Below, piece after piece: positions 34,057 to 64,000 of a stretch of 64,000 nucleotides of DNA (position 1 is its first letter; each line of letters starts with the position of its first letter). A program made the translations under genes and the position numbers. This stretch comes from Nitrospirota bacterium (GTDB lineage Bacteria > Nitrospirota > Nitrospiria > SBBL01 > JAADHI01), in contig JAJDBV010000061.1 in NCBI GenBank assembly GCA_029261165.1, positions 1,731 through 65,730 on the forward strand, in the 5' to 3' direction. The notes beneath the pieces are model-generated. The model was given only the letters and a program-made list of their open reading frames with translations, was not told the DNA's origin and did not search any database.

Positions 34057-34135
34057 TAAGCCGTATCGAAAGATCAGGGTGATCAGAAAAATATTTTGAA
34101 GTTTTCTATAAAAGGAAATGTCCTAGCATAACCAA

Positions 34136-34229: not shown

Positions 34230-34256
34230 AGTTTAGAACCATATGAAGAGGAGACT

Positions 34257-34796: not shown

Positions 34797-34804
34797 ACCA
34801 GGTT

Positions 34805-34881
34805 GCGCCCATAGCTCAGTTGGATAGAGCACTTGACTACGAATCAAGGGGTCGGGAGTTCGAATCTCTCTGGGCGCACCA
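34805..34881 (+). tRNA. tRNA-Arg (anticodon ACG)
   Basis: GCGCCCA acceptor stem, anticodon loop CTACGAA, GTTCGAATC, encoded CCA. Confidence 0.96.
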
Positions 34882-35222
34882 GTTTTTTAATGTGTTAGAA
34901 AAAGCATCTGCAACAGCTGTAACCCACCCATCGGTCTTCCTATTGTAACTGCTTGTAAATTGACCTCGAAACTTAACCGCTAAAGTTTATTGCTTTTCAT
35001 CCGATAGTGTATTGATAGGATCATTGATCAAAGAAAAAAGAGGTTCTATCTGTATAAAATGGATGTGATTTACTTGGTTCAACATTCGAGGCTTTAAATG
35101 TGTTGTGATCCATGTCCATCCATCGAGATCTTGAAATTGAAGACCCGTCCCTCGGTGTTCCAGGATCATCCTGGTGGACCCTTGGAGATGGGCATCGCCA
35201 TCTCGCGGTATGGAGTAAGGGC

Positions 35223-38200: not shown

Positions 38201-38609
38201 TGGGTTTAAGGAATATAATGAGCGGAACGGCGTCGAGAGAGGAAATGAGGCCCTCAGGAATATCGCAGATGCTTTTAGAATAAACCTTAGATCGGCTGAC
38301 AGCATTAGCCGATTCGGAGGATCAACCTTCATGATTTTAATGACAGAAACAATTAAGGAATCAGGGACCTTGGCTGCCGGGAAGCTACGGAGAATCGTCG
38401 AGTCTCTCTCATTCCCACATCAAGAAGGGAAGGCCAAAGAACGCCTTACCATCAGTATTGGGATTTCCACTTTTCTTACGGATGCCCAGACAGGGGAAGA
38501 GATCGTCAGTAAGGCATTCAGCGCTCTTGAACGGGCCCAGAATGAGGGAGGCAATCGTATCGTCGATGCCGGGAAGATGTTAACGGGGAGGAATCAGTCC
38601 GATGGGTAA
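35223..38609 (+). CDS. Hybrid sensor kinase: Cache-HAMP-HisKA-HATPase-REC-pseudoREC-degenerate GGDEF
   Basis: Two TM helices, HAMP (DEIEQLA..FN.M), H-box SHELRTPL, NLLSNAIKFT, DTGVG, GTGLGL, REC (ITLDIMLP), C-terminal RSAD..RFGGSTF. ATG 35223 preferred as start. Confidence 0.9.
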   Translation: MKNGLRRKFILAVIFLGVLSVAIALVATAWRGTAALRETLGDNFQGLAHETSQKVDIAIIREITVLQHMSNAEVVKAAVMENNTRYEGTLEAEIFRKIQRAETAWEKSDAAARAKQMSSKASAFLEESVKLEKEEGVQFVTFVTDKEGVLVASTTAVRPYQYAREDWWVKTMQLKGEAVFLSNVYQNKKTDRYVFDLAVPIFNRGSSEAIGAIKIVFDLKGFLSPLIVKTRFGQTGHAMLIDSEGTVLACPILPTGMHIPEGVLITAVTAMDPGWIVAEDDAHGGKNSIVGFSPVGEVLNISAPFDGNRWHSFIRQAPEETYAPIDSLLRTIFYSGGLSIGFLVIIGFVVAGRLVEPIQVLQKGAEEIGKGDLDHRLDIRTGDEIEQLAEEFNKMAEKLKISHVHLEEEVAERTMALRETVAKLQEADRLKSEFLSNISHELRTPLTSIIGFSEILIDQVSGDLNEIQMGYVKNMLHSGQNQLELISNLLDLSKIRSGRMQTSLEPFRIQEVLDSTIMTIIPLIEKEGLHLVREIQEGLPEILADKGKVRQILLNLLSNAIKFTGEGGMIKIGGHTTTHERKLFLEISVTDTGVGIRQNDQEIIFDEFRQVDASYTRDYPGTGLGLPITKHFVEMHGGSIWVKSESGRGSTFTFTLPVEVPAEGWTETKRAGGRETVEAQAVSKVKREKSPVGSVGETDRPVILVVEDDPMVSQLITLHLTQAGYEIAHAYNGDEAILKARALNPFAITLDIMLPGKDGWQVLQELQSDLETRDIPVVILSMVENTELGLSLGTVDYLMKPIDKQALLNTLTKLDLKKKVMIKPVTILVLEHNPHMLAEIKNILRETAFGVISASEIEEGIDLALEGRPDLILLGLTGFPEENGIGLPQRLVKHRIIKNIPIVAYLQEELTRELKERLEGEIRKIIHYDKKSIREALLFEIKKYEKLYPDKAKMIDGLTGLYNERYFRSRLDGEVEAAFRYKRIFSLMATNVDGFKEYNERNGVERGNEALRNIADAFRINLRSADSISRFGGSTFMILMTETIKESGTLAAGKLRRIVESLSFPHQEGKAKERLTISIGISTFLTDAQTGEEIVSKAFSALERAQNEGGNRIVDAGKMLTGRNQSDG

Positions 38610-43598: not shown

Positions 43599-44657
43599 CT
43601 AGCAGAAGGTCTTATCTTGACGGGATGGGATTCCCGAATTAGGGAGGCCGCCTAAACACTCCATCGACCGTGAATTCTTTCCGGCTTCGACTTCCATCAT
43701 CCGGATAGCTTGGACCCTGCCACGACCAACTTTTTTTGCCTTATCGAGGGCGTACTCTGCACAGACTAAGACCTCTTGAACCCGTTTTATCCCTGGATCC
43801 GGTATCGAGGAAATTCCAATACTGACTGACATTTTTTTTTCCTTGTCTGAGAATTCTTCTAGAGAAATCCTTCCAATTCTTTCCGAGATCGTCGTGGCAA
43901 TCAACACGGCTTTTCCTTGATCCTGCTCTGTGAGGAGCAACATAAACCCCTTTTCCCCGTTTCGGGCCAGGGTATCCACAGCCCGAACCTGTTCCTTGAT
44001 TTCCTCAGAAATCGACTTCAAGGCTTTATCCCTCACCTCTTGACCACAAGAATCAATTATTTCCTCCTCCTGATCGACTTCGATGATCAAGCAGGAAAAG
44101 GGGCTTTTATAACGACTTGTCCTTTTTAACTCTTTTGCCACAATCGCTTGAAAACGTTCTTTGCTCACAAGTCCAGTCACCGGATCAAAAATGGCAAGTG
44201 AGTCTACATTCGTGAGAAGGTCGTTGTATTCCATCTCTTTCATTTTGAGCGCATCGCTGAGTAATCTTTCTCGAACGAAGGAATCAAACCTGACTTTTAA
44301 TTCAAGCTGATCTACGGGCTTGCTAATATAATCAACCGCCCCTTCCTTCAGACAGACAATCCGTTCTTTGATCTCTTTCCTTCCACCTAACATGATGATC
44401 GGAACTTTTTTGGTGAGCATGTTTAATTTTGACCAACGGCAGACCTCTATCGCAGAGATGTCGTGCAGGGCTAAATCCAATATGATCAGATCGGGGTGCT
44501 GTGCGGAGGCAAGTTTCATCCCCTGACGGCCCGACGCAGCCAGAGTCGCCTCATTTCCCATATCATCAAACAAACGTTTGACTTCTTTCGATTCATAATC
44601 ACCGTTCCCGATAATCAGCGTTTTGACTTTCATTTCTCTCCTGAATGAAGAATTCAT
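43599..44657 (-). CDS. REC plus degenerate GGDEF protein (PleD/PopA-like)
   Basis: REC (LIILDL, YISKP), DPVTGL, RAVD I-site, active site ARNGEKGF. Confidence 0.85.
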   Translation of the reverse strand: MNSSFRREMKVKTLIIGNGDYESKEVKRLFDDMGNEATLAASGRQGMKLASAQHPDLIILDLALHDISAIEVCRWSKLNMLTKKVPIIMLGGRKEIKERIVCLKEGAVDYISKPVDQLELKVRFDSFVRERLLSDALKMKEMEYNDLLTNVDSLAIFDPVTGLVSKERFQAIVAKELKRTSRYKSPFSCLIIEVDQEEEIIDSCGQEVRDKALKSISEEIKEQVRAVDTLARNGEKGFMLLLTEQDQGKAVLIATTISERIGRISLEEFSDKEKKMSVSIGISSIPDPGIKRVQEVLVCAEYALDKAKKVGRGRVQAIRMMEVEAGKNSRSMECLGGLPNSGIPSRQDKTFC

Positions 44658-51295: not shown

Positions 51296-52417
51296 TCATT
51301 TGGGTTCAGCAAGAAAAACGCAGCCCTTTCCATTTAACTTCGCGCGATACATTGCTTCATCCGCTTGTCTGATCAGAAGATGACGAATATTGTCATTCGA
51401 TGACCGCATGTCAATATGATCCCTGATAGAAGACAGTCCAATACTGCATGTCAACCTTCCCTCTATCATAACAACCTGCGCTTTGGGATGAATCGGCACG
51501 GATGTAAAAGTAAATTTTCGAATCGCGTTGCAAATGGATTCTGCAACATCTACCACTTGATTCAGGCTCGCCCGGGAGAAGATAATGACAAATTCATCAC
51601 CCCCATATCGGGCAATCGTCACTCCCTTATGTGAAACCACTTCCCTAAGAATATTGGCGACATCCTGAAGGACATGGCTTCCGGTCAAATGTCCGAACTC
51701 ATCATTGATCTCCTTAAAATGATCCATATCCATGAAGAGTAAGACGAGGTCGTCCTTACGCCGTTTTGCCAAGCGTACCTCTTCGTCCAGTTTCAGATGA
51801 AAATACCGATCATTGTAGAGACCTGTAAGGCCGTCTCGTTTTGACATTTCGCTATGTTTTCGAGCGTAGAGCACATTCTCGATTAAAGTCGATGTATATC
51901 CCGCAAAGATCTCCAAAAGTTTTAATTCTTTTTTGGAGTAATACCCTTTATCTTTTCTATTAATTAACTCAATGACACCGCAAACCGACTGTTCAACAAT
52001 AATCGGCGCACATATAATCGATCGTGTTCGAAACCGACTTAACTGATCAATCTTGGGGGAAAGATAAGTCTCCCTTTTAGAAGTTTTGCTCAGGAAGGGC
52101 TTTCCATACAAGTAGCTCGCGCCGACAATTCCGGCATTGACCGGAAGTTGAATCCCAACCAGTTTAGAGGAACCTGCACCGAAACAAGCAACAAAAACAA
52201 GTTCGTGGCATTCTGAAGAAAGACTTCTCTTTACTGAATCCTCCAAAAGAATCGATCCCGCTTCCGACGGAACAAATTGATTTGCCTTTGTAAGGATCTC
52301 CTTCAACATCAGATCCAGGCCGGGACCGCCTTGGTCCAATTCGCTCCCCTGGCGATCATAGCTCAGCAATAGATTAAGATGCCGGTTATCAAGAAGATGT
52401 AGCCTCATAATGAACAA
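51296..52417 (-). CDS. GAF-GGDEF dinucleotide cyclase with the Hypr (cGAMP synthase) signature
   Basis: GAF (T.SIICAPI..GVIELIN), DMDHFKEINDEFGHLTGS and an intact RYGGDEF. Confidence 0.88.
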   Translation of the reverse strand: MFIMRLHLLDNRHLNLLLSYDRQGSELDQGGPGLDLMLKEILTKANQFVPSEAGSILLEDSVKRSLSSECHELVFVACFGAGSSKLVGIQLPVNAGIVGASYLYGKPFLSKTSKRETYLSPKIDQLSRFRTRSIICAPIIVEQSVCGVIELINRKDKGYYSKKELKLLEIFAGYTSTLIENVLYARKHSEMSKRDGLTGLYNDRYFHLKLDEEVRLAKRRKDDLVLLFMDMDHFKEINDEFGHLTGSHVLQDVANILREVVSHKGVTIARYGGDEFVIIFSRASLNQVVDVAESICNAIRKFTFTSVPIHPKAQVVMIEGRLTCSIGLSSIRDHIDMRSSNDNIRHLLIRQADEAMYRAKLNGKGCVFLAEPK

Positions 52418-52537
52418 CGTACCTTTTTCACAAGAATCTTGTCAAATTCCACCAACAATTACTGGCGTTACCTTAATACGCTTTAAAGTTCTTGACACTA
52501 CAGTAAAAAAAAGATAGCCTTCGAATTGAGATTCGGT

Positions 52538-52807
52538 ATGGCTAATTTAAATAAAACAGCGTGGACTTTAATTTTTTTTATACGCGTCGGGGGTCTTTGA
52601 GGGGGGGTCATGGGAGAGGTTTTGCTCCTTTTCTCCCCATCCGGGCTCTTGCAGGATATCTTCCTGAAGGGATATCACCTCGGGATAAATCCTCCGGTCG
52701 TTCTTGACCTCCGCTTATTCACCTTTACGCTTGGATTTACTTTTCAGATCAACCTTCTCAGCCTGTTGGGAATCATTCTCGCCCTATATACCTACAAGCA
52801 GGCGTGA
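52538..52807 (+). pseudogene. DUF4321-like small membrane protein interrupted by an in-frame TGA at 52598-52600, or a shorter ORF from ATG 52610
   Basis: C-terminus LDL..FTFTLG....INLLSLLG fits DUF4321. Upstream in-frame ATG 52538 encodes a TM-like segment broken by TGA. Confidence 0.55.
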
Positions 52808-52842
52808 AAAGAAGATCATTGGATCAAAGCATCCTCCTTACA

Positions 52843-54840
52843 TTAAATTCCCTCGATAATTTCCGTCTCTTTTAATACCTTAATCCGGTCACGAATTTCA
52901 GCGGCCCGTTCGAACTCTAATTGCTTTGCCGCTTCTTTCATGTCGTATTCCAATGTCTTAATAAGACTGGCCCGTTCTTCTTTCGTAACATAAGCCCCCC
53001 CTTCTTCCGCAACAAGCGAGGCGTCAGGAACATCAGACGCGAACTCCTTCCGAAGCGTTTCTGGAATCCCTTTTCGGATTGTTTCCGGTGTGATGCAATG
53101 CTTTCTATTGTGATCCTCTTGAATATGACGGCGTCGGTTTGTTTCATCAATGGTCATCCGCATTGACTTTGTCATTCTTTCAGCATAGAGAATGACCTTT
53201 CCGGAAACATTTCTGGCCGCTCTTCCTGCTGTTTGTATTAAGGAGCGATGTGAACGGAGAAAGCCTTCCTTGTCCGCATCGAGAATTGCAACAAGAGATA
53301 CCTCAGGAAGATCAAGCCCCTCACGCAACAAATTTATTCCGACAAGGACATCGAATTCACCACGCCGCAGGTCGCGAATCACTTCCATCCGTTCAATCGT
53401 CTCAATATCCGAATGAAGATACCGGACTTTTAAACCGATTTCCTGGTAATATTCACACAGGTCCTCCGCCATCCTTTTTGTTAAGGTTGTCACAAGAACC
53501 CGCTCAGACCGGGCCACCCTTTCTCGGATCTCTCCAATCAGATCGTCTACCTGTCCTTTCGCAGGACGGACAGAAATCTCTGGATCCATCAATCCTGTCG
53601 GCCTAATGACCTGTTCAACCACCTGCCCGATCGATTTCTTCAGCTCGTAAGGTCCGGGTGTCGCCGATACATAAATCACTTGCCGCATAAACCCTTCAAA
53701 CTCCGCAAAAGTCAAAGGGCGATTATCGAACGCTGATGGAAGACGAAAGCCATACTCGATCAGATTCTTTTTTCGGGCACGATCTCCTTCGTACATCCCT
53801 CCAATTTGTGGAACAGTTGCATGACTTTCATCAATAATCAAAAGTGTATTTTTTGGAAAATAATCGAGCAATGTCGGCGGCGGTTTACCCGGCATACGCC
53901 CGGAAAGATAACGCGAGTAATTCTCTATTCCCTGGCAATACCCAATTTCCCGTATCATCTCCAAGTCAAATCCAGTCCTTTGCTCGATGCGTTGTGCCTC
54001 TACCAGCATCTGGCTGTCATGAAATATTTTAATCCGATCCTGAAGTTCAAGTTCAATCCCGGTTAAGGCCGTCTCAATGCGTTCCGGGGGAATCACATAG
54101 TGACTCCCCGGGTATATTGCCACTTTATGAAGCCGCCGTATGACTGAACCTCGAAGCGGATCAACTTCATGGATGGCCTCTACAATATCTCCAAAGAACG
54201 AAACGCGAATACAGTACTTATCGGACGAGGTCGGGAAAACTTCAACAACATCACCACGAACCCGGAAAGTTCCCCGATAAAAATCAATATCGTTTCTTTC
54301 ATATTGGATCTCGACCAACTTTTTGAGAATAGCATCGCGGTTACTCTCCCGTCCTTCTTCAAGATAGACAAGCATTCCGTGGTAGGCCTCGGGCGACCCC
54401 AGGCCATAAATACAGGAGACCGAAGCAACAATAATAATATCATTCCGCTCAAATAATGACCGTGTCGCCCCATGACGCATTCGATCAATGGCATCATTGA
54501 TTGAAGCATCTTTCTCAATAAATGTATCCGTATGAGGAAGATAGGCCTCCGGCTGGTAGTAATCGTAGTAGCTGACAAAATACTCTACGGCGTTCTCCGG
54601 AAAAAATCCTTTGAATTCACGGTAGAGTTGTGCCGCCAAGGTCTTGTTGTGGGCGATCACCAGGGTCGGCTTTTGGACCGATTGAATCACGTTTGCCAGG
54701 GTGAAGGTCTTCCCTGAGCCGGTCACGCCCAATAGAACCTGATGCCGCTTCTCCTGAGAAATCCCCTTCGTAAGCGCCTCAATCGCAGATGGCTGGTCCC
54801 CTTTTGGATCAAAATCAGAATAAAGTTTAAACGCCGGCAT
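52843..54840 (-). CDS. uvrB: Excinuclease ABC subunit B
   Basis: [36 protein letters not shown] and a C-terminal UVR domain. Confidence 0.98.
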
Positions 54841-54932
54841 GTCGAAACCCTTGTGAGACCTGAAGAGGTTTTCTTCTCCGTTCAGTCAGAAGAGAATCAG
54901 GCGGCACGTGAGGAGAAAAAGGAAGGTTCATC

Positions 54933-55862
54933 TTAGCCCTGAGGGGTATCTTCAAAAAGGGCGTCTACGAAAGATTCAACATGGAAGGGGATCAAATCAT
55001 CTGCCCCTTCACCGACACCGATGTCAGTCACCGGAACCGAAAGGGTCTCTACGATCGGGATGACAATCCCTCCCCGCCCTGTGCCGTCAAGCTTCGTCAG
55101 AATAATCCCCGTGATTCCGATTGCTTCATTAAAAAGCTTTGCCTGAGAGAGAGCATTCTGGCCTGTTGTGGCATCAAGGACCAGGATCTTTTCATGAGGC
55201 GCGCCCGGCATGGCTTTTTCAAGAACCCGCACCATCTTTTTTAACTCCGCCATGAGATTATTCTTGGTCTGTAAACGGCCAGCCGTATCAATAAGAACGT
55301 GGTCCGACTTGCGTGCCAGGCCGGCACTCACGGCATCAAATGCCACGGCCGCCGGGTCTGCACCCGGACGATGACGGATGACTTCGACACCGACCCGTTC
55401 ACCCCAGAGTGCCAACTGCTCACCGGCTCCGGCCCGAAAGGTGTCCCCGGCCGCCAGGACAATCCGGCCTCCCTCTTCCTTCAGTTTTTGCGCTCGTTTC
55501 CCAATCGTGGTTGTCTTTCCGACACCATTGACTCCGACAAAAAGGGTCACCTTTGGGGATACTGAAAAAGGCATTTCACTCCTCTCTTTCTCCAGAATAG
55601 AAACCATAAATTTTTTCAGTTTTTTCTTCAATGAAACCAGGTCGGAGACCTCTTTCCTTTCAACGCAGGGCTTCAAGTCCCTCAGAAACCGCTCGGTCAC
55701 CTCAACCCCCAAATCGGCACCGATGAGGAGTTCTTCCAGGTGGTCGAGCATATCCGCATCGATCGTCGCACGGCCAAAAAAAAGCGCGGCAACCCCATCC
55801 GAAAAATAATTTCGAGTCTCTTTCAGGCCTAAGCCGAGCTTTTTCAAGAAGCCCTTCCCCAT
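54933..55862 (-). CDS. ftsY: Signal recognition particle receptor FtsY
   Basis: GVNGVGKTTT, DTFRA, DTAGR, DATTGQN and TKLDG. Confidence 0.96.
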   Translation of the reverse strand: MGKGFLKKLGLGLKETRNYFSDGVAALFFGRATIDADMLDHLEELLIGADLGVEVTERFLRDLKPCVERKEVSDLVSLKKKLKKFMVSILEKERSEMPFSVSPKVTLFVGVNGVGKTTTIGKRAQKLKEEGGRIVLAAGDTFRAGAGEQLALWGERVGVEVIRHRPGADPAAVAFDAVSAGLARKSDHVLIDTAGRLQTKNNLMAELKKMVRVLEKAMPGAPHEKILVLDATTGQNALSQAKLFNEAIGITGIILTKLDGTGRGGIVIPIVETLSVPVTDIGVGEGADDLIPFHVESFVDALFEDTPQG

Positions 55863-56381
55863 CTACCCCTCCACTAAGCCTTCATCGTTGATTATGTGAA
55901 GCAGCCTTTTCTCGCGCCGCCGCATTCGCGCGGCCTCAGAAGGCGAATCTTCGTGATCGTATCCCAGCAGATGCAGAAGACCATGAATCAGCATAATTAA
56001 TAGGTGTTCCTGCATGGACCGTCCATATAGAAGCGCTTCCTTTTCAACGGTTTCCAATGAGATCATCACATCTCCGATGCATTCCGGATGAAGACCGCTC
56101 CCGATGCCTTCCTGCATCGGAAAGGCAAGAACGTTGGTCGGCGCGTCATGTTTCCGATAATCACGATTATATCCCCTGATTTGACGATTATTCACAAAGA
56201 CAAGACCCACTTCACCATTCAGTTTTTGTTCCTGAAGAACCCGGCGTGTCCATCGCAACAGTCTCTTCCGGTCAATACGATATTTTCTTTGGCGGTTCAG
56301 GATGGTGATCTGCATCGGGGGTGTCATACGGGAAGGGCTTATTTCTTTCTTCTCTTCACTTTTTCCCTTCAAAACGGTCAT
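55863..56381 (-). CDS. ybeY: rRNA maturation endoribonuclease YbeY (start may be ~56327)
   Basis: N..YR....TNVLAF and HGLLHLLGYDH. Confidence 0.95.
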   Translation of the reverse strand: MTVLKGKSEEKKEISPSRMTPPMQITILNRQRKYRIDRKRLLRWTRRVLQEQKLNGEVGLVFVNNRQIRGYNRDYRKHDAPTNVLAFPMQEGIGSGLHPECIGDVMISLETVEKEALLYGRSMQEHLLIMLIHGLLHLLGYDHEDSPSEAARMRRREKRLLHIINDEGLVEG

Positions 56382-57366
56382 AGGCCTTTATGATTTCTTG
56401 AACCAGACGATGGCGAATGACATCTTTTTCGGTAAAATAGGAAAACTGGATGCCAGGAATATCACGCAAGACACCCTGGATCTCGATAAGACCCGACGGC
56501 CTGTCTGATGGAAGATCCACTTGCGTGACATCACCCGTGATCACCGCCTTGGAACGAAAACCGAGGCGGGTCAGGAACATCTTCATTTGTTCAGACGTCG
56601 CATTTTGTGCTTCATCCAGGATAACAAATGAATCGTTCAGGGTTCGTCCGCGCATAAAGGCCAGCGGAGCGATCTCTATATCCCCCCGCTCCAGAAGGCG
56701 CTTTGCCCGGTCCACATCCATCATATCATAAAGGGCATCATAGAGAGGGCGAAGATAAGGGTTGATCTTTTCGTACATATCCCCAGGGAGAAATCCCAGC
56801 CGTTCACCTGCTTCGACGGCAGGCCGGGCCAGGATAATTCGCTCTACCTTTTTGCGCTGTAAGGCCGAAACCGCCATAGCCATCGCCAAATATGTTTTGC
56901 CAGTCCCGGCCGGACCAATTCCAACGACGACATCATACTTATAGATATGATCAATGTACTCTTTCTGGGCAGGCGTCTTCGGTAGGATTGATCTCCTTTT
57001 TCCAGCCACCGGGATGGCCGCTTGGGAGAGCAATACGGCTTGTGACGGAGACTTCTCTAAAAAAGGAGATAGCCCCACCCCCTCCCCTTCCGAATGGGCG
57101 GTTCGGGAGACACGAATGGCGTAACTGACATCTTCCTCAGTCAGTCGAAACCCCTCTTTCACAAGTGAGGACAATGCGATGAGGGCTTGCTCGGCTTGCC
57201 GGACTTTCTCTGGTCTCCCCTGGATCGTAAGCTCTTCGCCTCTGGCCGAAAATCTTACGCCAAAAGCCTTCTCAATCATCTTGATGTGCCGATCACAACT
57301 CCCGTACAGGGAGAAGATATCCGTCCCTTTCTCTAAGCTTACTTTTCCCTGAAAAACCTTATCCAA
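56356..57366 (-). CDS. phoH: PhoH-family ATPase (YbeZ-like)
   Basis: GPAGTGKT, RPAVEAGE.LGFLPG, RGRT, DEAQN and GD.TQ.DL. TTG 57366 preferred because a promoter lies inside the longer ORF. Confidence 0.93.
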   Translation of the reverse strand: MDKVFQGKVSLEKGTDIFSLYGSCDRHIKMIEKAFGVRFSARGEELTIQGRPEKVRQAEQALIALSSLVKEGFRLTEEDVSYAIRVSRTAHSEGEGVGLSPFLEKSPSQAVLLSQAAIPVAGKRRSILPKTPAQKEYIDHIYKYDVVVGIGPAGTGKTYLAMAMAVSALQRKKVERIILARPAVEAGERLGFLPGDMYEKINPYLRPLYDALYDMMDVDRAKRLLERGDIEIAPLAFMRGRTLNDSFVILDEAQNATSEQMKMFLTRLGFRSKAVITGDVTQVDLPSDRPSGLIEIQGVLRDIPGIQFSYFTEKDVIRHRLVQEIIKAYDRFEGKK

Positions 57367-57412
57367 CGAAAATTTTTCCCTCTGACAGTGATAGGAATCA
57401 ACTTCTTTTTGT

Positions 57413-57441
57413 ATTATAACAATCGCCTTTTTAAAAGACAA
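57413..57441 (-). promoter_or_regulatory. Sigma70 promoter for phoH-ybeY-ftsY
   Basis: TTGTCT-17 nt-TATAAT with an extended -10 TG. Confidence 0.65.
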
Positions 57442-57579
57442 GGCGAAGTCTTTTCCAAATCTCGGCAGTTTATATATCCGTAATCTCGAAATGAGGGCCT
57501 TTCCTCTAACGGCTTGAGATTTTTCAACAGACAGATCACACAACTCCTGAGCAGGCTAATGTCTCTAATCTTCCGGATC

Positions 57580-58752
57580 TTACAAAACCTCGTGCCAGGC
57601 ATTTAACGACAAGGGCGCATTATTTACGGCATTGCTCAAGGCGATACAACTATATTGGATGGACGAATTCCCATTTGACTTGATCCTGAAGTTCTCCCCT
57701 GTCGGATCTTCAGAAGTATTCGCCAGGAGCACCGCTCCTGTGATCGAGTCATTGCCGTTTGATTTAAAACGGTCAAACGACGTATTTCCAGTGATAATAA
57801 TTAAACCCGTCCAGTTAAAACCACCGTTGAATTCAACTCTACCTTTTTTGGTGGTCTCGCTATTGATAATTAAGATCCCATACCCATCGGCATCCCCATT
57901 AAATTTAATCCTTGCGTCTTCTCCTGTCATGCTAATGACGGTCACCTCCGGATTCGCTTGCGTTCCCCAGCTCACATCAGGATTATTCACCTTCTGATCA
58001 TCCACTAAAATCGTCCGGTCTGCATTCGCTGCAAGTGTGTTGGCAATGGTCTGAACCTCGGTCGGGTTCATATCCTCAGGTCGAAGCTGTATGCTCGGGT
58101 CCATTCCAATCCCGGTGATGGTCGCACCCCCTTTCACCCGAATCTCGTCGTAGGCGCTCACCGTGTCAACGCCCACCCCGGCCTTGTTCTGGGCACAATC
58201 GCTTCCGGCCACGGGTGTCTCGCCCGCAGGAAGGTCTCCATTGATCGTGGTATTCCCCTGAAACCTGATCCGACTAAAACCACCAGAAACGCCCAGCGAG
58301 GCATTCACCGGAACCATTGTGGAGACATTTCTCACCTCGGCCTCGATTTTCCTTGTCTCTCCGGAGGGATATTTTCCTGTGGCGGTAACATAGACGGTGT
58401 TGTCCGGGGCCAGATTGCCCTTGATGTTCGTTTTGCTTACTTCAATGCTATAGCCTAAGCCCTGAACGCCATTGAAATCTGTTACGACGAGCCAGGGCTG
58501 GGGGGCAGCCGTGACAACATCAAAGTTTTGTCCTCTCAGGGCCCGCATGGCATGCTGGATACCGGCGTCTGCCGCATAGAGGGTCTCCGATGCCACGCGT
58601 TCGTTGCCTCCCAGCTTCACCTCTGTAGAGGAAAGCATGATGCCGGCCAAACCAAGCGCGGTCACCATCACCAATATCAGCAACGAAACCACCAGGGCCA
58701 TGCCTTTCTGGTTACAATGAAGTTTATGTAGATTGATCTCCTTAATTTTCAT
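57580..58752 (-). CDS. pilX: PilX-type minor pilin, copy 2
   Basis: QKG|MALVVSLLIL prepilin site without Glu5, A.YAADAGI PilX N-terminal motif, beta-helix-like C-terminus. SD AGGAGG before ATG 58752. Confidence 0.8.
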   Translation of the reverse strand: MKIKEINLHKLHCNQKGMALVVSLLILVMVTALGLAGIMLSSTEVKLGGNERVASETLYAADAGIQHAMRALRGQNFDVVTAAPQPWLVVTDFNGVQGLGYSIEVSKTNIKGNLAPDNTVYVTATGKYPSGETRKIEAEVRNVSTMVPVNASLGVSGGFSRIRFQGNTTINGDLPAGETPVAGSDCAQNKAGVGVDTVSAYDEIRVKGGATITGIGMDPSIQLRPEDMNPTEVQTIANTLAANADRTILVDDQKVNNPDVSWGTQANPEVTVISMTGEDARIKFNGDADGYGILIINSETTKKGRVEFNGGFNWTGLIIITGNTSFDRFKSNGNDSITGAVLLANTSEDPTGENFRIKSNGNSSIQYSCIALSNAVNNAPLSLNAWHEVL

Positions 58753-58822
58753 AGTCAACCCTCCTATATCTTGCGAGGGACCTTTTCAACGGATAACATC
58801 TACGATGAGACGCTTCCGCACC

Positions 58823-58857
58823 AAATAAAAAGGCCCATTTCTACTAAGAAATGGGCC
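58823..58857 (-). terminator. Intrinsic terminator of the riboswitch expression platform
   Basis: GGCCCATTTC-TTAGTA-GAAATGGGCC followed by TTTTTATTT. Confidence 0.85.
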
Positions 58858-58892
58858 ACCATTGTTATCATAAACCACCCTCATCGGATGGT

Positions 58893-58991
58893 TCTCCAGG
58901 CGGCCCAACCGGCATGCCTTCTAAACACATAAAGGCGAAACCTTGTGACTTTGCGTCCCGGTCTTTCGACCGGTTTGCCTTTTTCTAGAAA
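58893..58991 (-). ncRNA. GEMM-I (c-di-GMP-I class) riboswitch aptamer
   Basis: Minus strand AAGGCAAACCGGTC-GAAA-GACCGGGACGCAAAG core with a GNRA loop, P3 containing GCCTT/AAGGC, 3' GGGCCGCC, and P1 TTTCTAG/CTGGAGA. Confidence 0.88.
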
Positions 58992-59048
58992 GATCTCAGA
59001 AAATTACGCTAAATAAATCCTTTCTTATGTAATAAACTGATGAATCAA

Positions 59049-60248
59049 TTACAATATCTGGTGCCAGGCGTTAAGCGACAAGGGCGCCTTGTTCATGGCA
59101 TTGGTCAAGGCGGTACAGCTATATTGGATGGTGGTGGCCGCCTCTACCCTGAACCTCAAATCCTCCGCCGAAGCATCGGGTTCTGTATTGGCAATAATCA
59201 CTCCCCCGGTAATGCTGGTACCGGCAGTGCCATCAAACTCGATTCGGGTCGAGCCGGTAATGATAATAATACCATCCCATGAGAATGAATCTCCGAATTC
59301 AATCCTTCCTTTCCTGTCAATATTGCTGTTCAGGATCAGGATACCGGCTCCGGTCACCGTTCCATTGAAGCGAACCCTTGAGTCATCCCCTTCCATATTG
59401 AAGACCGTCACCTGCGGATTGGCGACAGTCCCGTAGGTCGTATTCGTGTTGATCTCCGCTGTCGTGTCATTTACCGCGATGGTCCGGTCTGCATTTGTTG
59501 CAAGATCGCTTGAAAGAGCCTGAATTGCCGCCGCAGACATGTCCTGCGGCCGCAATTGAACACTCGGCGTCAAACCCATCCCGGTGATGCTTTGACCGCC
59601 GCCATCGAGTCTGATCTCATCGTAGGCACTCACCGTGTCTACGGCCACGGCTGCCTTATTTTGCGCACAGTCGCTCCCCGCGACAGGGACCTCGCCGCCG
59701 GAAAGGTCTCCATTGACGGTAACATTATCTTCGAACCTAATCTCGCTGTCGTTTCCCACAACACCCAGAGTGGAAGTGACCGGCACCATTGTGGAGAGAT
59801 TTCTCACCTCGGCCTCAATCCTCTTGAGTCCCCCACCGCTTGGATAAGTCGCCGTCGCCGTGATAAAGACCGTGTTGGCCGGGGCAATATCGCCATTGGT
59901 GTTTATTTTTTTAACATCGACAAAATAGTTTAACCCTGGGGTTCCATTGAAATTCGTTACATTAAGCCAAGGCTGGGGGGAAGCCGTGACAATATCAAAA
60001 TCTTGTCCTCTCAAGGCCCGAAGGGCATGCTGTATGCCGGCGTCTGCTGCATAGAGGGTCTCCGCCCCCACGCGTTCGTTGCCTCCCAGCTTCACCTCTG
60101 TAGAAGAGGCCATGATCCCGGCCAAACCAAGCGCAGTAATCATCACCAATATCAATAGCGAGACCACCAGGGCCACGCCTCTCTGATTAAGAGGGCGTCG
60201 GAGGATGTTCTGCCCAACGATCTCTCTATTTTTCTCGATGTCTTTCAT
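59049..60248 (-). CDS. pilX: PilX-type minor pilin, copy 1
   Basis: QRG|VALVVSLLIL and YAADAGIQHA; close paralog of 57580-58752. Confidence 0.8.
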   Translation of the reverse strand: MKDIEKNREIVGQNILRRPLNQRGVALVVSLLILVMITALGLAGIMASSTEVKLGGNERVGAETLYAADAGIQHALRALRGQDFDIVTASPQPWLNVTNFNGTPGLNYFVDVKKINTNGDIAPANTVFITATATYPSGGGLKRIEAEVRNLSTMVPVTSTLGVVGNDSEIRFEDNVTVNGDLSGGEVPVAGSDCAQNKAAVAVDTVSAYDEIRLDGGGQSITGMGLTPSVQLRPQDMSAAAIQALSSDLATNADRTIAVNDTTAEINTNTTYGTVANPQVTVFNMEGDDSRVRFNGTVTGAGILILNSNIDRKGRIEFGDSFSWDGIIIITGSTRIEFDGTAGTSITGGVIIANTEPDASAEDLRFRVEAATTIQYSCTALTNAMNKAPLSLNAWHQIL

Positions 60249-60283
60249 CGTCTACCTCCATCAAATCATCATGATTCTTTATT

Positions 60284-63200
60284 TTAAGGATTGTAGATCC
60301 TGGAAATTGTTGTTTTATTGCCGCACCGGTCCGTCGCAGTAACCTTGAGGGTATGGTTCAGACCTCCGCTGGTCGATTGATACGATTCCGAGTAGACGTC
60401 CGGTGAAATCTCTGTCATCGTCGTCGGCGGTATCCCGATAAACCCGGTCACCTCAAGGCTGACATCCTGAAGGCCGACGACAGAGGAAGAGGCAGTCACT
60501 TCAACATCGACATTGCCGGAAACCGGCCCGGCGGCCGGTGTTGGAGGAGAATTAAACGAAAGTGACGGGCCGACGGTGTCACACTGAGCATAAGTGTAGG
60601 CGCCGGTTTCGGGCAGGATATCAAAGTTGCCCTCTGTATCAATCGTCTCCAGATAATACCAAACCCTCGATGCCGTACTCATAGCGGGGATGCTTCCTGA
60701 CCATGACCCCTTAGAGGCAATCACCGTTCCTAAGTTCAAGGGAATAGGATTGGGATAACTGACGCCGCCCTCCGTTGATGAGGGACGTGTCGGCGGTGTC
60801 GTACTGGTGAATGCATCAATCGCATAATGAATCTTCACCGAGTTGACCGAATAAGACGGGTTCGCGGTCGCATCGTCGACAGCAGTCGAGAGACCGACCA
60901 GCTTCCCGGGTGCAACATAGGAGGTGATCGTCGGGACGGTACTCGGGAGTGTGCTGGCCGCAGGTTGATCCTGAAAAGTGGTACTCTTCACAAACTGCGG
61001 ACCCTGTGAAATTCTCTGCGATGCCAGGGTGGCAGAACAGACAAAAGAAGCATCTAGGGTATCCCGGGTCATGAATCCTCCGGACACCGTCACCCCGCGC
61101 ATATCAATACTCGCCGGAATTGTATTCACATTACTGGTAAAGGTCAGTCTTAACGTGGCCGTCCCGCCATTTGCAGAAACTGTGGGGACAACACTAAAGA
61201 CCACGACCGTACCGCTCCCTGTTTCAACCGGTGGAACAGTCGTTAGATTGGTGTCTTCAAAAAGAACCAGGGCCGGACTTGCGATTTCAACCTTTTTCAA
61301 GAAGGCCAAGGTATTTCCCCATTTCAGGAGCATATGCGTGATGTCCAGATTCTTGTCGGGGTGTGTGTTCTTGATTCCCAAATCCACGATATGATGGGTG
61401 TCATCCGGGGTTGAGATATTCGTCGTCGTCACCACGGCATCATCAAACTCAATTCCGCCGGTCCTGATCGTTAAAGGGATCGTGTTTTCTGCCGTATATT
61501 GCTCGCCGTCAACGGCCCTGACTCTAAAATCGTAATCCCCTGAACAGAACTTCCCCGTGTCAATGTCGACGCTCGTCAGCGGATAAAATGGGAAATGATA
61601 ATAATTGTCACTACTTCTAGGGGCGAGGTCTGAGGCCCCACCGCTTCCATAGGCAACGTCCGCCGGCGTGTTGGTCGGGTCGCCTGCTTTGTTGATGAAA
61701 AAGTCGACCTTGGCCCCTGTGGAAACGGTCACATAAGTGGGAGGGTCACTGTAATCAAAGCCCTGCCGATCAAAATTACTCGAATCGGGAGTGCAATCAA
61801 GAGGATCGACCACCCAGGTAATATAACGGCTGCCCGGGACAAAATCCGGGTCGCTCGCGGCATTCGGATCGGTTCCAATGACTGTTCTTCCGGAGAGAAA
61901 GTCAATTGGCGTTCCTGTCGGTGTAAGTCCTGGATAAATTTTATTTCCCCCCCGAACGATGCCGGTGCCCGTCGTCCATTGAATCCTGGGGGCACAGGCC
62001 GCAGTCGAGATACTGCTGATCGTGCTGTCTGCGGCATCGCCGCAATCATCGGGAGGGGCCGCATCAATCGCAGAAACCTTGATGTCGTAAACGGTCGTCC
62101 CCATCAAACCAATCAGGATGGTCTGTCCGGTAGCGGGTAAAGTTCTCGAGGTCAGATCAATTGTCTCATACGTGGTCCAGAGAGTGTCTGTGTCCTTCTT
62201 GTAATAGACCTTTAAAAGGGCCGGGGTACTGTGGGTATTCACATCAGGCGCGGGCACCAACCAATCGACGATGAGCGTCGAAGTGTCGTCTCCGGCGACC
62301 AGGCTGGTGATCGTCGGTGCCTTCGGTTTCATCGCATTATCGGGCGGGGTCACCTTTAAAGCCACCGATTCCGCACTGACGACGCCACAGGTGTTGACCG
62401 CCTTGATTTTATAATAATAAACCGTACAAGCGACGGCGGTGTTATCAACAAAAGAAGCGACCGTGACCGTCGTTTCATTCGCAAGGCGATTTCCGGTTCC
62501 GGAGGTATCATCCGGGACAAAATCTGGCGTTGTTCCCCGATAAACCCGGTACCCTTTTAAGCTTTTTTCAGCGGTATTGTCGACGGTTAGCGTCACCGGA
62601 TTCCAGTAGAGGGTGACCTTATTCTTGCCCATCTCTGCCAGAGGGGCTTGCACCTGATCCGGCGCAGCCGGTGCCGGCCCCGTTTCAGGGATGCCGGAGA
62701 CAGAGGTTTTGTTCGTATCCCATAAATCAGTATTGGGATTGCCGGGAAAACAGGTGCTGGAATTTCCAAAGGCGTCATAGGCCTCGACAATGACATTATA
62801 GGATACACCACTTTTCAGGCCGGTCAGGATCGCAGTAGAAGGGCAGCTCCCGGTACAGGGAACATCGAGTGTTCCGTTATCGGCATTGGTCCCCGTCGGT
62901 GGCGTTGGGGGAATGGCGTCTATTGCCCCCGTACTGTAATAGATCCTGAAACCGGCGATATCACCATCCGGGTTGCTGAAGGTCCAGTTGACCGTCAATT
63001 GCCCGCACTCCCCGGCAACAGCAGTCACCGTCGTTGTCGTCGGGCAGGAAGGAGGCGTGGTATCCCCAAGCGAGGCGCCAAAATTTCTCAGGACAACGTC
63101 CGAGCTCACCGTTCGCACACGATATCCGTTATTGTCAGCGTAATCAGGATCGTGACGGGCGCTCCGCCCCGTCACCTTGAGCGTTACCCTGCGGATATCG

Positions 63201-63730
63201 GATGCCTTCGTTTGAACCGCAGTATTGACATTCCGCGGGAAATTCAGGTCGGTTGCATCACCAGGATTCTGACCATAAAACTTAAACTCGGCCTCAGTAA
63301 TATTGGCTGCAAATCTTTCCGCCCCCTCACCATTATAATTTCTCATCAACCAAGGGTTTGTACATGGCGTTTCAAAACAACTAATGGAATAGATCACCGT
63401 TTCAGCGACGTTATTATTGTCAAAATCTCCTTGAATGGTCACCGAATTTCCAGGATTATCTTTATCCAGAGTAATACTCGGTAGCGCGCTCGATCCAAGT
63501 ACACCCACGATGGGAGATCCAAAACGGTAGCCCGACGCCCGAAGTTCACGCGTGATCTGGTCGCTGGAAACCCTGACATTCTGCTGCATCTCTGCGATCT
63601 GTTCCTGAACCACGGAATTTTTATTAAAGTTAATATAAGTGTTGTAGGAACCCTTGAGAATGACTCCGACAATGACCATGACGATCAACACCTCAATCAG
63701 CGAAAAACCTTTTCTGTTTAGACAGATCAT
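60284..63730 (-). CDS. Giant PilW-like minor pilin with fibronectin type III and Ig-like domains
   Basis: RKG|FSLIEVL prepilin motif, MQQNVR...I.RELR.SGY PilW motif, three FN3-like W...Y.VY..Y repeats. Located between pilV-like and pilX genes. Confidence 0.78.
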   Translation of the reverse strand: MICLNRKGFSLIEVLIVMVIVGVILKGSYNTYINFNKNSVVQEQIAEMQQNVRVSSDQITRELRASGYRFGSPIVGVLGSSALPSITLDKDNPGNSVTIQGDFDNNNVAETVIYSISCFETPCTNPWLMRNYNGEGAERFAANITEAEFKFYGQNPGDATDLNFPRNVNTAVQTKASDIRRVTLKVTGRSARHDPDYADNNGYRVRTVSSDVVLRNFGASLGDTTPPSCPTTTTVTAVAGECGQLTVNWTFSNPDGDIAGFRIYYSTGAIDAIPPTPPTGTNADNGTLDVPCTGSCPSTAILTGLKSGVSYNVIVEAYDAFGNSSTCFPGNPNTDLWDTNKTSVSGIPETGPAPAAPDQVQAPLAEMGKNKVTLYWNPVTLTVDNTAEKSLKGYRVYRGTTPDFVPDDTSGTGNRLANETTVTVASFVDNTAVACTVYYYKIKAVNTCGVVSAESVALKVTPPDNAMKPKAPTITSLVAGDDTSTLIVDWLVPAPDVNTHSTPALLKVYYKKDTDTLWTTYETIDLTSRTLPATGQTILIGLMGTTVYDIKVSAIDAAPPDDCGDAADSTISSISTAACAPRIQWTTGTGIVRGGNKIYPGLTPTGTPIDFLSGRTVIGTDPNAASDPDFVPGSRYITWVVDPLDCTPDSSNFDRQGFDYSDPPTYVTVSTGAKVDFFINKAGDPTNTPADVAYGSGGASDLAPRSSDNYYHFPFYPLTSVDIDTGKFCSGDYDFRVRAVDGEQYTAENTIPLTIRTGGIEFDDAVVTTTNISTPDDTHHIVDLGIKNTHPDKNLDITHMLLKWGNTLAFLKKVEIASPALVLFEDTNLTTVPPVETGSGTVVVFSVVPTVSANGGTATLRLTFTSNVNTIPASIDMRGVTVSGGFMTRDTLDASFVCSATLASQRISQGPQFVKSTTFQDQPAASTLPSTVPTITSYVAPGKLVGLSTAVDDATANPSYSVNSVKIHYAIDAFTSTTPPTRPSSTEGGVSYPNPIPLNLGTVIASKGSWSGSIPAMSTASRVWYYLETIDTEGNFDILPETGAYTYAQCDTVGPSLSFNSPPTPAAGPVSGNVDVEVTASSSVVGLQDVSLEVTGFIGIPPTTMTEISPDVYSESYQSTSGGLNHTLKVTATDRCGNKTTISRIYNP

Positions 63731-63739
63731 TTTTCTCCC

Positions 63740-64000
63740 CTACCGTGTAATCAACGTCGAGACACTGGCCCGATGGCTTCTCCCGGAATTGTCGGTCCAC
63801 GAAACGACCGATGTCGCCAGTATTGAACGAAGTACTGGTTGATTGGCCCCATTGACCGTCATTGTCGGATTTCTCTGAATCGTCCATATTCTATTATATG
63901 TCTTCACAACCGTGGCCGGGAGGGAATAGGTCCAAATCAGGTCACCGGCCGTTATATCTCCGCAAGGGGCATTTGCCGTACAGGTATTCACACCATCGTC
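63740..64000 (-). CDS. PilV-like minor pilin, C-terminal part (5'-truncated by the window)
   Basis: Y.R.WTI.....V.W.D..G..H...VSTLI pattern typical of PilV-like C-termini; directly upstream of the PilW-like gene. Confidence 0.6.
   Translation of the reverse strand, partial: DDGVNTCTANAPCGDITAGDLIWTYSLPATVVKTYNRIWTIQRNPTMTVNGANQPVLRSILATSVVSWTDNSGRSHRASVSTLITR

What the first reader, a model, noticed from the sequence alone, without database searches (positions are those of the whole stretch)
51296..64000. Candidate system: cyclic-dinucleotide-switched type IV pilus tip
Seen within 13 kb: a Hypr-type cyclase, a pilV-giant pilW-pilX1 operon, a GEMM-I riboswitch with terminator, and pilX2. An EAL enzyme and two RxxD-only receptors lie 7-16 kb further upstream. 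Known: in Geobacter, GacA-made cGAMP acts through GEMM-I riboswitches on pilus and surface-interaction genes, and PilVWX form the pilus priming/tip complex. Inference: this organism changes pilus-tip composition according to cyclic-dinucleotide level. Caveats: core genes separate the parts, so proximity may be chance, and the aptamer has G20, which usually means c-di-GMP.
Basis: inference. Interest (0 to 1): 0.78.

Follow-up and report, generated by a model that had tools for sequence, protein, structure and literature searches.

The report
c-di-GMP riboswitch gating a second pilus-cap gene
A standard RNA sensor for the bacterial signal c-di-GMP sits between two sister genes for the cap protein of a type IV pilus in an uncultured Nitrospirota bacterium and probably shuts off the second one when the signal is high; the unusual cyclase nearby is real but does not appear to belong to this switch.

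Summary
A pilV / giant pilW / pilX1 operon is followed by a c-di-GMP-I aptamer (63.4 bits, cut-off 35) with an intrinsic terminator. Then come pilX2, four housekeeping genes, and a GAF-GGDEF cyclase with the Hypr signature (Ser plus GGDEF).

The proposed system is only partly supported:
- **Ligand.** The aptamer has G20, A47 and C92, the c-di-GMP triad, not the A20 of cGAMP sensors.
- **Direction.** Folding of three homologous leaders predicts an OFF switch. Without ligand, the aptamer's 3' strand pairs with the terminator's 5' arm.
- **Cap proteins.** PilX1 and PilX2 are 62% identical. The PilX2 model is a pilin fold with an inserted beta-solenoid head, as in Thermus ComZ and cyanobacterial PilX caps. 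No PilY1 was detected in this genome.
- **Conservation.** The riboswitch-pilX unit recurs in 1 of 40 related genomes, and there it stands alone.
- **Cyclase.** Its orthologue occurs in 17 of those 40 genomes. This genome also has two A20 aptamers elsewhere, one before a cytochrome-like protein. Those are its likelier targets.

Earlier notes of this scan report c-di-GMP riboswitches before minor-pilin operons in other phyla. I rate this a new member of a known kind, of moderate interest.

The parts
63740..64000 (-). 3' part of a pilV-like minor pilin gene. The full gene is 63740-64342 on the contig, 200 aa.
   Evidence: ORF with the class III signal motif 'KDGFTLLEMLIAL'. It is 43% identical to the G001 operon pilV.
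60284..63730 (-). Giant PilW-like minor pilin, 1148 aa.
   Evidence: Pfam N_methyl 28.6 bits and fn3 41 bits. It is 56% identical over 1180 aa to the 1188-aa G001 counterpart.
59049..60248 (-). pilX1, 399 aa. A PilX-type cap pilin, presumed from its 62% identity to the modelled PilX2 to carry the same beta-solenoid head. It is the fast-evolving copy.
   Evidence: PilX_N 40.5 bits. It is 62% identical to PilX2, with branch length 0.58 against 0.10. The head is 55% identical to that of PilX2.
58895..58988 (-). c-di-GMP-I (GEMM-I) aptamer with G20, A47 and C92.
   Evidence: RF01051 63.4 bits, cut-off 35. RF03167 63.3 bits, cut-off 59. Position 20 read.
58872..58894 (-). Spacer hairpin between aptamer and terminator.
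   Evidence: Present in every fold of the leader. Its sequence differs among the three homologous leaders, but a hairpin is kept in G000:C28.
58852..58860 (-). 3' strand of the predicted anti-terminator (GGUGGCCCA). It pairs with the aptamer's 3' strand UGGGCCGCC at 58907-58899.
   Evidence: This pairing is the minimum-energy fold of the transcript cut before the terminator's 3' arm: -55.5 against -46.0 kcal/mol when the arm is kept unpaired.
58822..58857 (-). Intrinsic terminator: an 11-pair stem, a 4-nt loop and a U-rich tail.
   Evidence: Terminator scan and full-length fold.
57580..58758 (-). pilX2, 390-392 aa with a likely ATG at 58752. A PilX-type cap pilin with a beta-solenoid head. It is the conserved copy behind the riboswitch.
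   Evidence: PilX_N 41.3 bits. The AlphaFold model has pLDDT 77.7. Foldseek best match is ComZ 6qvi, E 2.8e-6. Ice-binding-type beta-helices match residues 142-374 at Z 10-11. It is 63-64% identical to the riboswitch-linked G001 gene.
51296..52417 (-). GAF-GGDEF cyclase with the Hypr signature (Ser plus GGDEF) and no RxxD I-site. It lies nearby but was not shown to belong to the switch.
   Evidence: Pfam GAF and GGDEF. Alignment to 6d9m. Motifs.

Best explanation
This is a transcription-attenuating c-di-GMP-I riboswitch inside the tail of a type IV pilus minor-pilin operon. It separates two paralogous cap pilins.

**Predicted mechanism (inferred from folding)**
- RNA polymerase reads from pilX1 into the aptamer, or starts at a weak promoter just upstream of it.
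- When c-di-GMP is low, the aptamer's 3' strand (UGGGCCGCC, which includes C92) pairs with GGUGGCCCA. This blocks the terminator stem, and pilX2 is transcribed.
- When c-di-GMP is high, the ligand locks that strand into the aptamer. The terminator forms and pilX2 is not made.

**Predicted outcome (inferred)**
- PilX1 accompanies the operon at all times.
- PilX2, which has the same pilin scaffold but a different beta-solenoid head, is added only at low c-di-GMP.
- The mix of heads available to cap the pilus therefore follows c-di-GMP.

**Status of the steps**
- Shown: the aptamer and its three specificity bases, the terminator, the paralogy of the two genes, the modelled fold of PilX2, and conservation of the riboswitch-pilX unit in a second species.
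- Inferred: the ligand, the OFF direction, co-transcription with pilX1, and the cap role.

**The cyclase**
The nearby Hypr-type GAF-GGDEF is a lineage-wide enzyme. It more probably feeds the A20 (cGAMP-type) aptamers found elsewhere in this genome.
For: **Aptamer**
- It scores 63.4 bits on RF01051, cut-off 35.
- It reads ..AAAAAG-GCAAACC.., so position 20 is G. It reads ACGC-A-AAG, so position 47 is A. The GC before the P1 3' strand gives C92.
- G20 recognises the first guanine and C92 the second. G20 RNAs discriminate against cGAMP (PMC6140456, passages).

**Terminator and direction**
- The terminator has 11 pairs and a U-tail.
- The aptamer with the platform that follows it also occurs in G000:C28 and G001:C30 (alignment). 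In all three leaders, the transcript cut before the terminator's 3' arm folds into the same anti-terminator. It is 9.5, 11.0 and 12.8 kcal/mol more stable than the state with that arm free.
- One G-to-A change in G001 turns a G-U pair of that helix into A-U.
- Internal contrast: the A20 leader on C35 builds its terminator directly from the aptamer's P1 3' strand, which is the ON design.

**Promoter**
- The scan found no sigma-70-like promoter in the 60 nt between the pilX1 stop and the aptamer.

**The two PilX proteins**
- They are 62% identical.
- Third-codon-position identity is 0.70-0.83 over residues 3-93 and 0.71 over the last 28 residues, against 0.33-0.47 over residues 154-364.
- The N-terminal scaffold is 86% identical and the head 55%.

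**PilX2 model**
- It is a pilin fold with an inserted beta-helix: Z 10-11 to ice-binding-type beta-helices over residues 142-374, and ComZ at E 2.8e-6.
- This architecture is proposed to replace the PilY1 cap in cyanobacteria (PMC13759059, passages).

**PilY1**
- Relatives G028 and G007 encode PilY1 after pilX.
- Neither the Pfam family nor the G028 PilY1 protein found a match in this 95%-complete genome.

**Conservation**
- In G001 a G20 aptamer lies 198 nt upstream of the closest PilX2 homologue.
Against: - Ligand and direction rest on sequence rules and thermodynamic folds. Nothing was measured.
- In the full-length window leader the minimum-energy fold already shows the terminator. The OFF logic therefore depends on co-transcriptional kinetics.
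- In G001 the unit is a stand-alone gene, with a TTGACA-16-TACTAT promoter that I read by eye in the alignment. Co-transcription with an operon is therefore not a conserved feature, and a weak promoter in the window cannot be excluded.
- The pairing is found in only 1 of 40 relatives. It is absent from all 7 more distant full-length homologue loci scanned.
- In Synechocystis three beta-solenoid PilX paralogues substitute for one another in competence (PMC13759059). A change of cap need not change function.
- Both PilY1 searches lacked a positive control.
Confidence: 0.6

Rival explanations
1. One reading: cGAMP made by the neighbouring Hypr GAF-GGDEF acts on this riboswitch and so sets the pilX2/pilX1 ratio.
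For: - The enzyme has Ser plus GGDEF, the pair required for Hypr activity (PMC6456294, passages).
- The cyclase gene lies 4-14 kb from a minor-pilin operon in seven of the 41 genomes searched, this one included (G000, G007, G012, G013, G017, G028, G030), in three genera of two families. Gene order was read in G007, G013 and G028.
- In Myxococcus, deleting the GAF-GGDEF Hypr enzyme GacB mildly raises pilus-dependent motility (bioRxiv 10.1101/600031, passages).
Against: - The aptamer has G20, not A20, and G20 RNAs discriminate against cGAMP (PMC6140456).
- Four housekeeping genes separate the parts.
- In G001 the cyclase, the riboswitch-pilX unit and the operon lie on three contigs.
- The cyclase orthologue occurs in 17 of 40 relatives, the riboswitch-pilX pairing in 1 of 40.
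- Two A20 aptamers elsewhere in this genome are better candidate targets.
Confidence: 0.08
2. The riboswitch is an ON switch: c-di-GMP induces pilX2, as the class II riboswitch does for pilA1 in Clostridioides difficile.
For: - High c-di-GMP commonly favours adhesive structures.
- The full-length minimum-energy fold without ligand already contains the terminator.
Against: - The terminator's 5' arm does not overlap the aptamer. Instead it is complementary to the aptamer's 3' strand in all three homologous leaders.
- A ligand that holds that strand can therefore only free the terminator.
- The ON design is seen, by contrast, in the A20 leader on C35.
Confidence: 0.2
3. The riboswitch-pilX2 unit is an independent cassette that merely landed behind the operon. 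The two PilX proteins are redundant caps, so tip function does not change.
For: - In G001 the cassette stands alone between unrelated genes.
- At the matching place in this genome (G000:C13, next to the same 860-aa and 123-aa genes) only a 44-codon 3' remnant of a pilX remains.
- Synechocystis PilX paralogues are interchangeable for competence (PMC13759059).
Against: - Synonymous sites of the pilin scaffold are far more alike between pilX1 and pilX2 than those of the head. This points to exchange between the neighbours, and to divergence concentrated in the head.
- PilX2 is the slow-evolving copy, with branch length 0.10 (0.033 in the head). It is therefore under constraint.
Confidence: 0.25

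Closest known systems
c-di-GMP-I (GEMM-I) riboswitches, Rfam RF01051; type example Vc2 of Vibrio cholerae
   Same: Full-length match at 63.4 bits. It has G20, A47 and C92. The roles of these bases are as described in PMC6140456.
   Different: It lies between two cistrons rather than at the head of an operon. Its platform is an anti-terminator/terminator pair, predicted OFF.
GEMM-Ib cGAMP riboswitches and the GacA regulon of Geobacter
   Same: Same aptamer fold. The same genome holds Hypr-type cyclases and A20 aptamers, one before a cytochrome-like exported protein. In Geobacter, cGAMP riboswitches precede cytochrome and pilus-assembly genes (PMC6456294, passages).
   Different: The pilX2 aptamer has G20, not A20. 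The organism is a Nitrospirota bacterium, not a Geobacter (names given by sources).
GacB (MXAN_2643) of Myxococcus xanthus, a GAF-GGDEF Hypr cyclase activated by cAMP
   Same: GAF-GGDEF architecture with Ser plus GGDEF (bioRxiv 10.1101/600031, passages).
   Different: GacB is inhibited by c-di-GMP through an I-site. The window enzyme has SHKG where RxxD should be. The paralogue on C75 keeps REID. Product and activator were not tested.
ComZ of Thermus thermophilus and the beta-solenoid PilX caps of cyanobacteria
   Same: A pilin fold interrupted by a beta-solenoid resembling ice-binding proteins, placed before the last strand (PMC13759059, passages; PMC6561018, listing and abstract start). There are several paralogues, and no PilY1 was detected.
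   Different: Sequence identity to the solved structures is only 10-16%. Cyanobacterial minor-pilin operons respond to c-di-GMP and cAMP at the transcript level, which the authors link to CRP-family regulators, and a review says no c-di-GMP riboswitch was identified in cyanobacteria (PMC10124867; PMC13759059). Here an RNA sensor acts directly.

Membership tests
c-di-GMP-I riboswitch (RF01051) | Covariance-model score above the curated cut-off over the full model | tested here: met
   63.4 bits against 35, model positions 1-87.
c-di-GMP-I riboswitch (RF01051) | Ligand-contacting bases G20, A47 and C92 | tested here: met
   Read from the cmscan alignment and the sequence. Roles of the bases from PMC6140456.
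c-di-GMP-I riboswitch (RF01051) | Binds c-di-GMP selectively | not testable with these tools
   Needs in-line probing or calorimetry.
c-di-GMP-I-GGC variant (RF03167) | G in place of A47. My reading of the name as G20-G47-C92 is recalled, not taken from a call. | tested here: not met
   The score of 63.3 passes the cut-off of 59. However, the model consensus has ACGCGAA where the window has ACGCAAA. The score ties with RF01051.
GEMM-Ib cGAMP riboswitch | A at position 20 | tested here: not met
   G in the window and in the G001 orthologous leader. A in G000:C35 and G000:C61.
Hypr GGDEF (GMP-AMP cyclase) | Ser at the GacA Ser348 position together with GGDEF, not GGEEF | tested here: met
   GHLTGS aligned to GHLVGS of 6d9m, and RYGGDEF. 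Rule from PMC6456294.
Hypr GGDEF (GMP-AMP cyclase) | Makes 3',3'-cGAMP | not testable with these tools
   Needs an enzyme assay.
PilX minor pilin (PF14341) | PilX N-terminal domain above the cut-off | tested here: met
   41.3 bits (PilX2) and 40.5 bits (PilX1) against 25.5.
Beta-solenoid cap pilins (ComZ / cyanobacterial PilX type) | Pilin fold with a beta-solenoid inserted before the C-terminal strand | tested here: met
   The model has pLDDT 77.7. The pilin part spans about residues 45-141 and 382-389, and the beta-helix residues 142-374. Z is 10-11 to ice-binding-type helices. ComZ scores E 2.8e-6 and Z 8.9.
Beta-solenoid cap pilins (ComZ / cyanobacterial PilX type) | Located at the pilus tip | not testable with these tools
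   Needs pilus preparations or imaging.

The most novel reading that the evidence does not exclude
In a bacterium in which no PilY1 was detected, c-di-GMP decides through an intra-operon riboswitch which beta-solenoid head caps the type IV pilus. The cassette moved from a stand-alone locus to the end of the minor-pilin operon. There, gene conversion keeps the docking scaffold of the two caps alike while the heads diverge. This would be an RNA-controlled swap of pilus-tip specificity.
Probability: 0.3. Interest if true: 0.55.

Novelty: new member of a known kind. Interest (0 to 1): 0.35.

Why it matters
It gives a simple, testable case in which a second messenger acts through RNA on one single component of the pilus tip, not on the whole machine. 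It places this in Nitrospirota, where pilus biology is little studied.

The wider by-product may matter more. The lineage conserves Hypr-type GAF-GGDEF enzymes together with many A20 aptamers, one of them before a cytochrome-like surface protein. This suggests that the cGAMP pathway known from Geobacter also exists in this order. My one search for Hypr together with Nitrospir* returned 4 papers, and none of the titles or abstract openings listed concerns it.

Tried and rejected
- **Wider distribution in genomes.** A scan of species-representative genomes with the PilX alignment gave 11 loci. All matched only the N-terminal part of the query; the longest match reached residue 198.
- **Wider distribution in metagenomes.** The scan gave 25 loci.
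  - Three of them (L080-L082) mirror the three G001 copies in identity and context, and I did not count them as independent.
  - I scanned 19 of the 36 fetched loci for RNA families, choosing the fuller matches. Two had a GEMM-I.
  - One is the G001-like locus. The other, in a Schekmanbacteria record (L071), lies 2 kb beyond the pilin genes, behind two unrelated genes.
- **Protein database.** Only 14 proteins matched at E <= 1e-5, so the family is too small for a co-occurrence statistic.
- **PilY1.** The Pfam search of the own genome found nothing, but its controls also found nothing. The search with the G028 PilY1 protein found nothing, and there was no positive control. Absence is therefore not proven.
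- **Expression.** No RNA holder was listed for the stretch. I did not lay reads.
- **Complex prediction.** I did not run one, because no binding claim depends on it.
- **Literature.** Searches for riboswitch with pilX and for riboswitch, c-di-GMP and minor pilin listed no paper describing a riboswitch before a pilX gene. I read passages of one candidate, PMC3543383, and it does not describe this.
- **Rejected idea.** The top Rfam hit (the GGC variant) does not indicate a changed ligand, because the window has A, not G, at the variant-defining place.
Full report
**Where the window lies**

The window is G000:C58:1731-65730 of a 2.9-Mb, 89-contig genome that is 95% complete. GC content is 49%. 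The sources name the closest PilX relatives as Nitrospira sp. or Nitrospiria bacterium. Earlier notes on the same genome call it a probable Nitrospirota bacterium.

**Anatomy**

Everything of interest is on the minus strand. Beyond the window, the contig carries these genes:
- pilD, a pilS-like kinase and a pilR-like regulator;
- a first minor-pilin set: fimT, pilV, pilW and a 468-aa pilX;
- the fimT of a second set.

Inside the window the order is:
- the second set's pilV (63740 onwards);
- a 1148-aa PilW with an N-terminal methylation motif and fn3 domains;
- pilX1 (399 aa);
- the aptamer and its terminator;
- pilX2;
- phoH, ybeY, ftsY and uvrB;
- the GAF-GGDEF gene.

**The RNA**

The aptamer scores 63.3 bits on RF03167 and 63.4 bits on RF01051, cut-off 35. 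That is a tie. At the place where the GGC-variant consensus has ACGCGAA, the window has ACGCAAA. It therefore does not carry what I take to be that variant's defining G; my reading of the name is recalled. The base before GCAAAC is G, so this is G20.

According to PMC6140456 (passages):
- G20 reads the first guanine of c-di-GMP and C92 pairs with the second;
- cGAMP sensors have A at position 20;
- the G20 wild type discriminates against cGAMP.

The ligand is therefore most probably c-di-GMP.

**Direction of the switch**

An 11-pair terminator with a U-tail follows at 58857-58822. Its 5' arm does not overlap the aptamer. Instead, GGUGGCCCA (58860-58852) is complementary to the aptamer's 3' strand UGGGCCGCC, which includes C92.

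I folded the transcript cut just before the terminator's 3' arm. This anti-terminator is then the minimum-energy structure, at -55.5 kcal/mol against -46.0 with the arm kept free.

Two homologous leaders align over the aptamer, the spacer and the terminator. One lies before an 873-aa lipoprotein on G000:C28. The other lies before a pilX in the same-genus genome G001. Both give the same result, with differences of 11.0 and 12.8 kcal/mol. In G001 a G-to-A change turns a G-U pair of this helix into A-U.

A ligand that holds the 3' strand in the aptamer can only release the terminator, so I predict an OFF switch. By contrast, the A20 leader on C35 builds its terminator from the aptamer's own P1 3' strand, which is the ON design. 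This remains an inference from folds. The full-length minimum-energy fold already contains the terminator, so kinetics matter.

**Promoter**

The scan found no sigma-70-like site in the 60 nt between the pilX1 stop and the aptamer. The G001 leader has a good TTGACA-16-TACTAT, which I read by eye in the alignment. Read-through from pilX1 is therefore likely here but not shown.

**The proteins**

PilX1 and PilX2 are 62% identical. The family is very small, with 14 proteins at E <= 1e-5 in the large protein collection.

The AlphaFold model of PilX2 has pLDDT 77.7. It shows a pilin fold with a right-handed beta-helix inserted at residues 142-374.
- Foldseek ranks Thermus ComZ first, at E 2.8e-6.
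- The structural re-alignment gives Z 10-11 to ice-binding-type beta-helices and Z 8.9 to ComZ.

PMC13759059 (passages) describes this same architecture for all cyanobacterial PilX homologues. The authors propose that it takes over the PilY1 cap function in organisms without PilY1, and they show that three paralogues can replace one another in competence.

Relatives G028 and G007 have a normal-sized pilW and pilX followed by a PilY1 gene. In this genome I found no PilY1, but neither search had a positive control.

**History of the pair**

- In the head (residues 144-364), PilX2 is 68% identical to the riboswitch-linked gene of G001 but only 55% identical to PilX1.
- In the N-terminal scaffold (residues 20-95), PilX1 and PilX2 are 86% alike, against 63% between PilX2 and the G001 gene.
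- Third-codon-position identity is 0.70-0.83 over residues 3-93 and 0.71 over the last 28 residues. It is 0.33-0.47 over residues 154-364. This pattern suggests gene conversion of the scaffold.
- Trees place PilX1 beside PilX2 on a long branch: 0.58 against 0.10 for the whole protein, and 0.97 against 0.033 for the head. With only five sequences this is weak.
- In G001 the riboswitch-pilX unit stands alone next to an 860-aa gene and a 124-aa gene. The G001 pilin operon ends with a single, more distant pilX and has no riboswitch.
- At the matching place in this genome (C13), only a 44-codon 3' remnant of a pilX remains.

I infer that the cassette moved to the operon end in this lineage and gave rise to pilX1 by duplication.

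**The cyclase**

GHLTGS aligns with GHLVGS of the GacA Hypr structure 6d9m, where WspR has GHVAGD. The motif is GGDEF. PMC6456294 (passages) states that Ser348 works only together with GGDEF. The enzyme lacks an RxxD I-site. Its architecture matches GacB of Myxococcus, a cAMP-activated GAF-GGDEF Hypr enzyme (bioRxiv 10.1101/600031, passages).

Orthologues at 59-86% identity occur in 17 of 40 relatives across two families.
- I could read the motif in 16 of them, and all 16 have Ser plus GGDEF. The seventeenth is cut by a contig end.
- A second paralogue group (10 loci) also has Ser.
- In this genome a regular expression found 20 GGDEF-type sites: 16 with Asp, 2 with Asn and 2 with Ser. The expression misses degenerate domains.

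**Does the cyclase belong to the switch?**

The riboswitch-pilX pairing occurs in 1 of 40 relatives. In that relative the cyclase, the cassette and the operon lie on three different contigs. The aptamer has G20.

This genome also holds two A20 aptamers (C35, and C61 at 29.6 bits, below the cut-off). One precedes an exported protein with cytochrome c-type matches. The other precedes an fn3-rich protein. In the 35 loci I examined (the 6 own-genome matches and the 29 further loci given), the pattern found 35 aptamers. Of these, 13 have A20 and 22 have G20. The cyclase is therefore better explained as part of a lineage-wide cGAMP-type pathway with other targets.

The cyclase gene stays 4-14 kb from a minor-pilin operon in seven of the 41 genomes searched, this one included, in three genera (gene order read in three of them). 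In G028 the same phoH-ybeY-ftsY-uvrB block lies between them. In G007 a penicillin-binding protein and a periplasmic binding protein lie between them. This may be inherited gene order.

**What is known**

- Two minor-pilin operons of Synechocystis respond in opposite ways to c-di-GMP at the transcript level, and a review says no c-di-GMP riboswitch was identified in cyanobacteria (PMC10124867, passages).
- cGAMP riboswitches precede pilus-assembly genes in Geobacter (PMC6456294).
- My two searches listed no paper on a riboswitch before pilX.
- Earlier unchecked notes of this scan report c-di-GMP-I riboswitches before minor-pilin operons in Omnitrophota and Smithella: 17 notes in at least 15 genomes. 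One of them has beta-solenoid tip pilins. The theme therefore recurs.

**Verdict**

The new elements here are the position between two cap paralogues and the predicted OFF logic. I file it as a new member of a known kind, with interest 0.35.

Noticed in passing
G000:C35:19581-19682 and G000:C61:18980-19061 (outside the window): Two GEMM-I aptamers with A at position 20, the cGAMP type. C35 precedes an 814-aa exported protein with HZS_alpha and cytochrome c matches, and its terminator is built from the aptamer's own 3' strand (ON design). C61 precedes an fn3-rich protein. Among the 35 aptamers found in the 35 loci examined (own genome and relatives), 13 have A20. Together with the conserved Hypr-type GAF-GGDEFs, this suggests a Geobacter-like cGAMP pathway in this Nitrospirota order.
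   Followed up: partly
G000:C75:26376-27482 (L142:376-1482): A second GAF-GGDEF with Ser plus GGDEF, 368 aa. Unlike the window's enzyme, it keeps an RxxD I-site (REID).
   Followed up: partly
window 60284-63730, and relatives L136:11734-16800 and L135:10251-14000: This genus has a 1148-1188-aa PilW with fn3 domains and a beta-solenoid PilX, and I detected no PilY1 in this genome (G001 was not searched). Relatives G028 and G007 have a normal pilW and pilX of about 300 and 230 aa, followed by a PilY1 gene.
   Followed up: partly
G000:C28:4836-4933: A near-copy of the window's riboswitch, with the same anti-terminator and terminator. It precedes an 873-aa lipoprotein with no Pfam match.
   Followed up: partly
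G000:C41:18655-18752 and G000:C54:3836-3933: Two paralogous G20 riboswitches, each before a small protein. By eye, the N-terminus of that protein resembles flagellar rod proteins, but it has no Pfam match. On C41 a PilZ-domain gene follows.
   Followed up: partly
G000:C13:199-330: A 44-codon remnant of a pilX 3' end, 52% identical to PilX2 residues 348-391. It lies beside the same neighbour genes that flank the stand-alone riboswitch-pilX cassette of G001. It looks like the scar of a relocated cassette.
   Followed up: partly
window 57580-58758 against 59049-60248: Synonymous-site identity between pilX1 and pilX2 is high in the pilin scaffold (0.70-0.83) and near saturation in the head (0.33-0.47). 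This pattern suggests gene conversion of the docking part.
   Followed up: yes
window 35112-38609 and 43599-44657: Two GGDEF-domain proteins with degenerate active sites (GGSTF and NGEKGF) but intact RxxD motifs. They are candidate c-di-GMP receptors.
   Followed up: partly
L071:4983-7985 and L071:10052-10132: A Candidatus Schekmanbacteria record also has two PilX_N genes in tandem after fimT-pilV-pilW. The stretch contains runs of N. A GEMM-I aptamer lies 2 kb further on, behind two unrelated genes.
   Followed up: partly
window 33971-34878: Three tRNA genes in a cluster.
   Followed up: no
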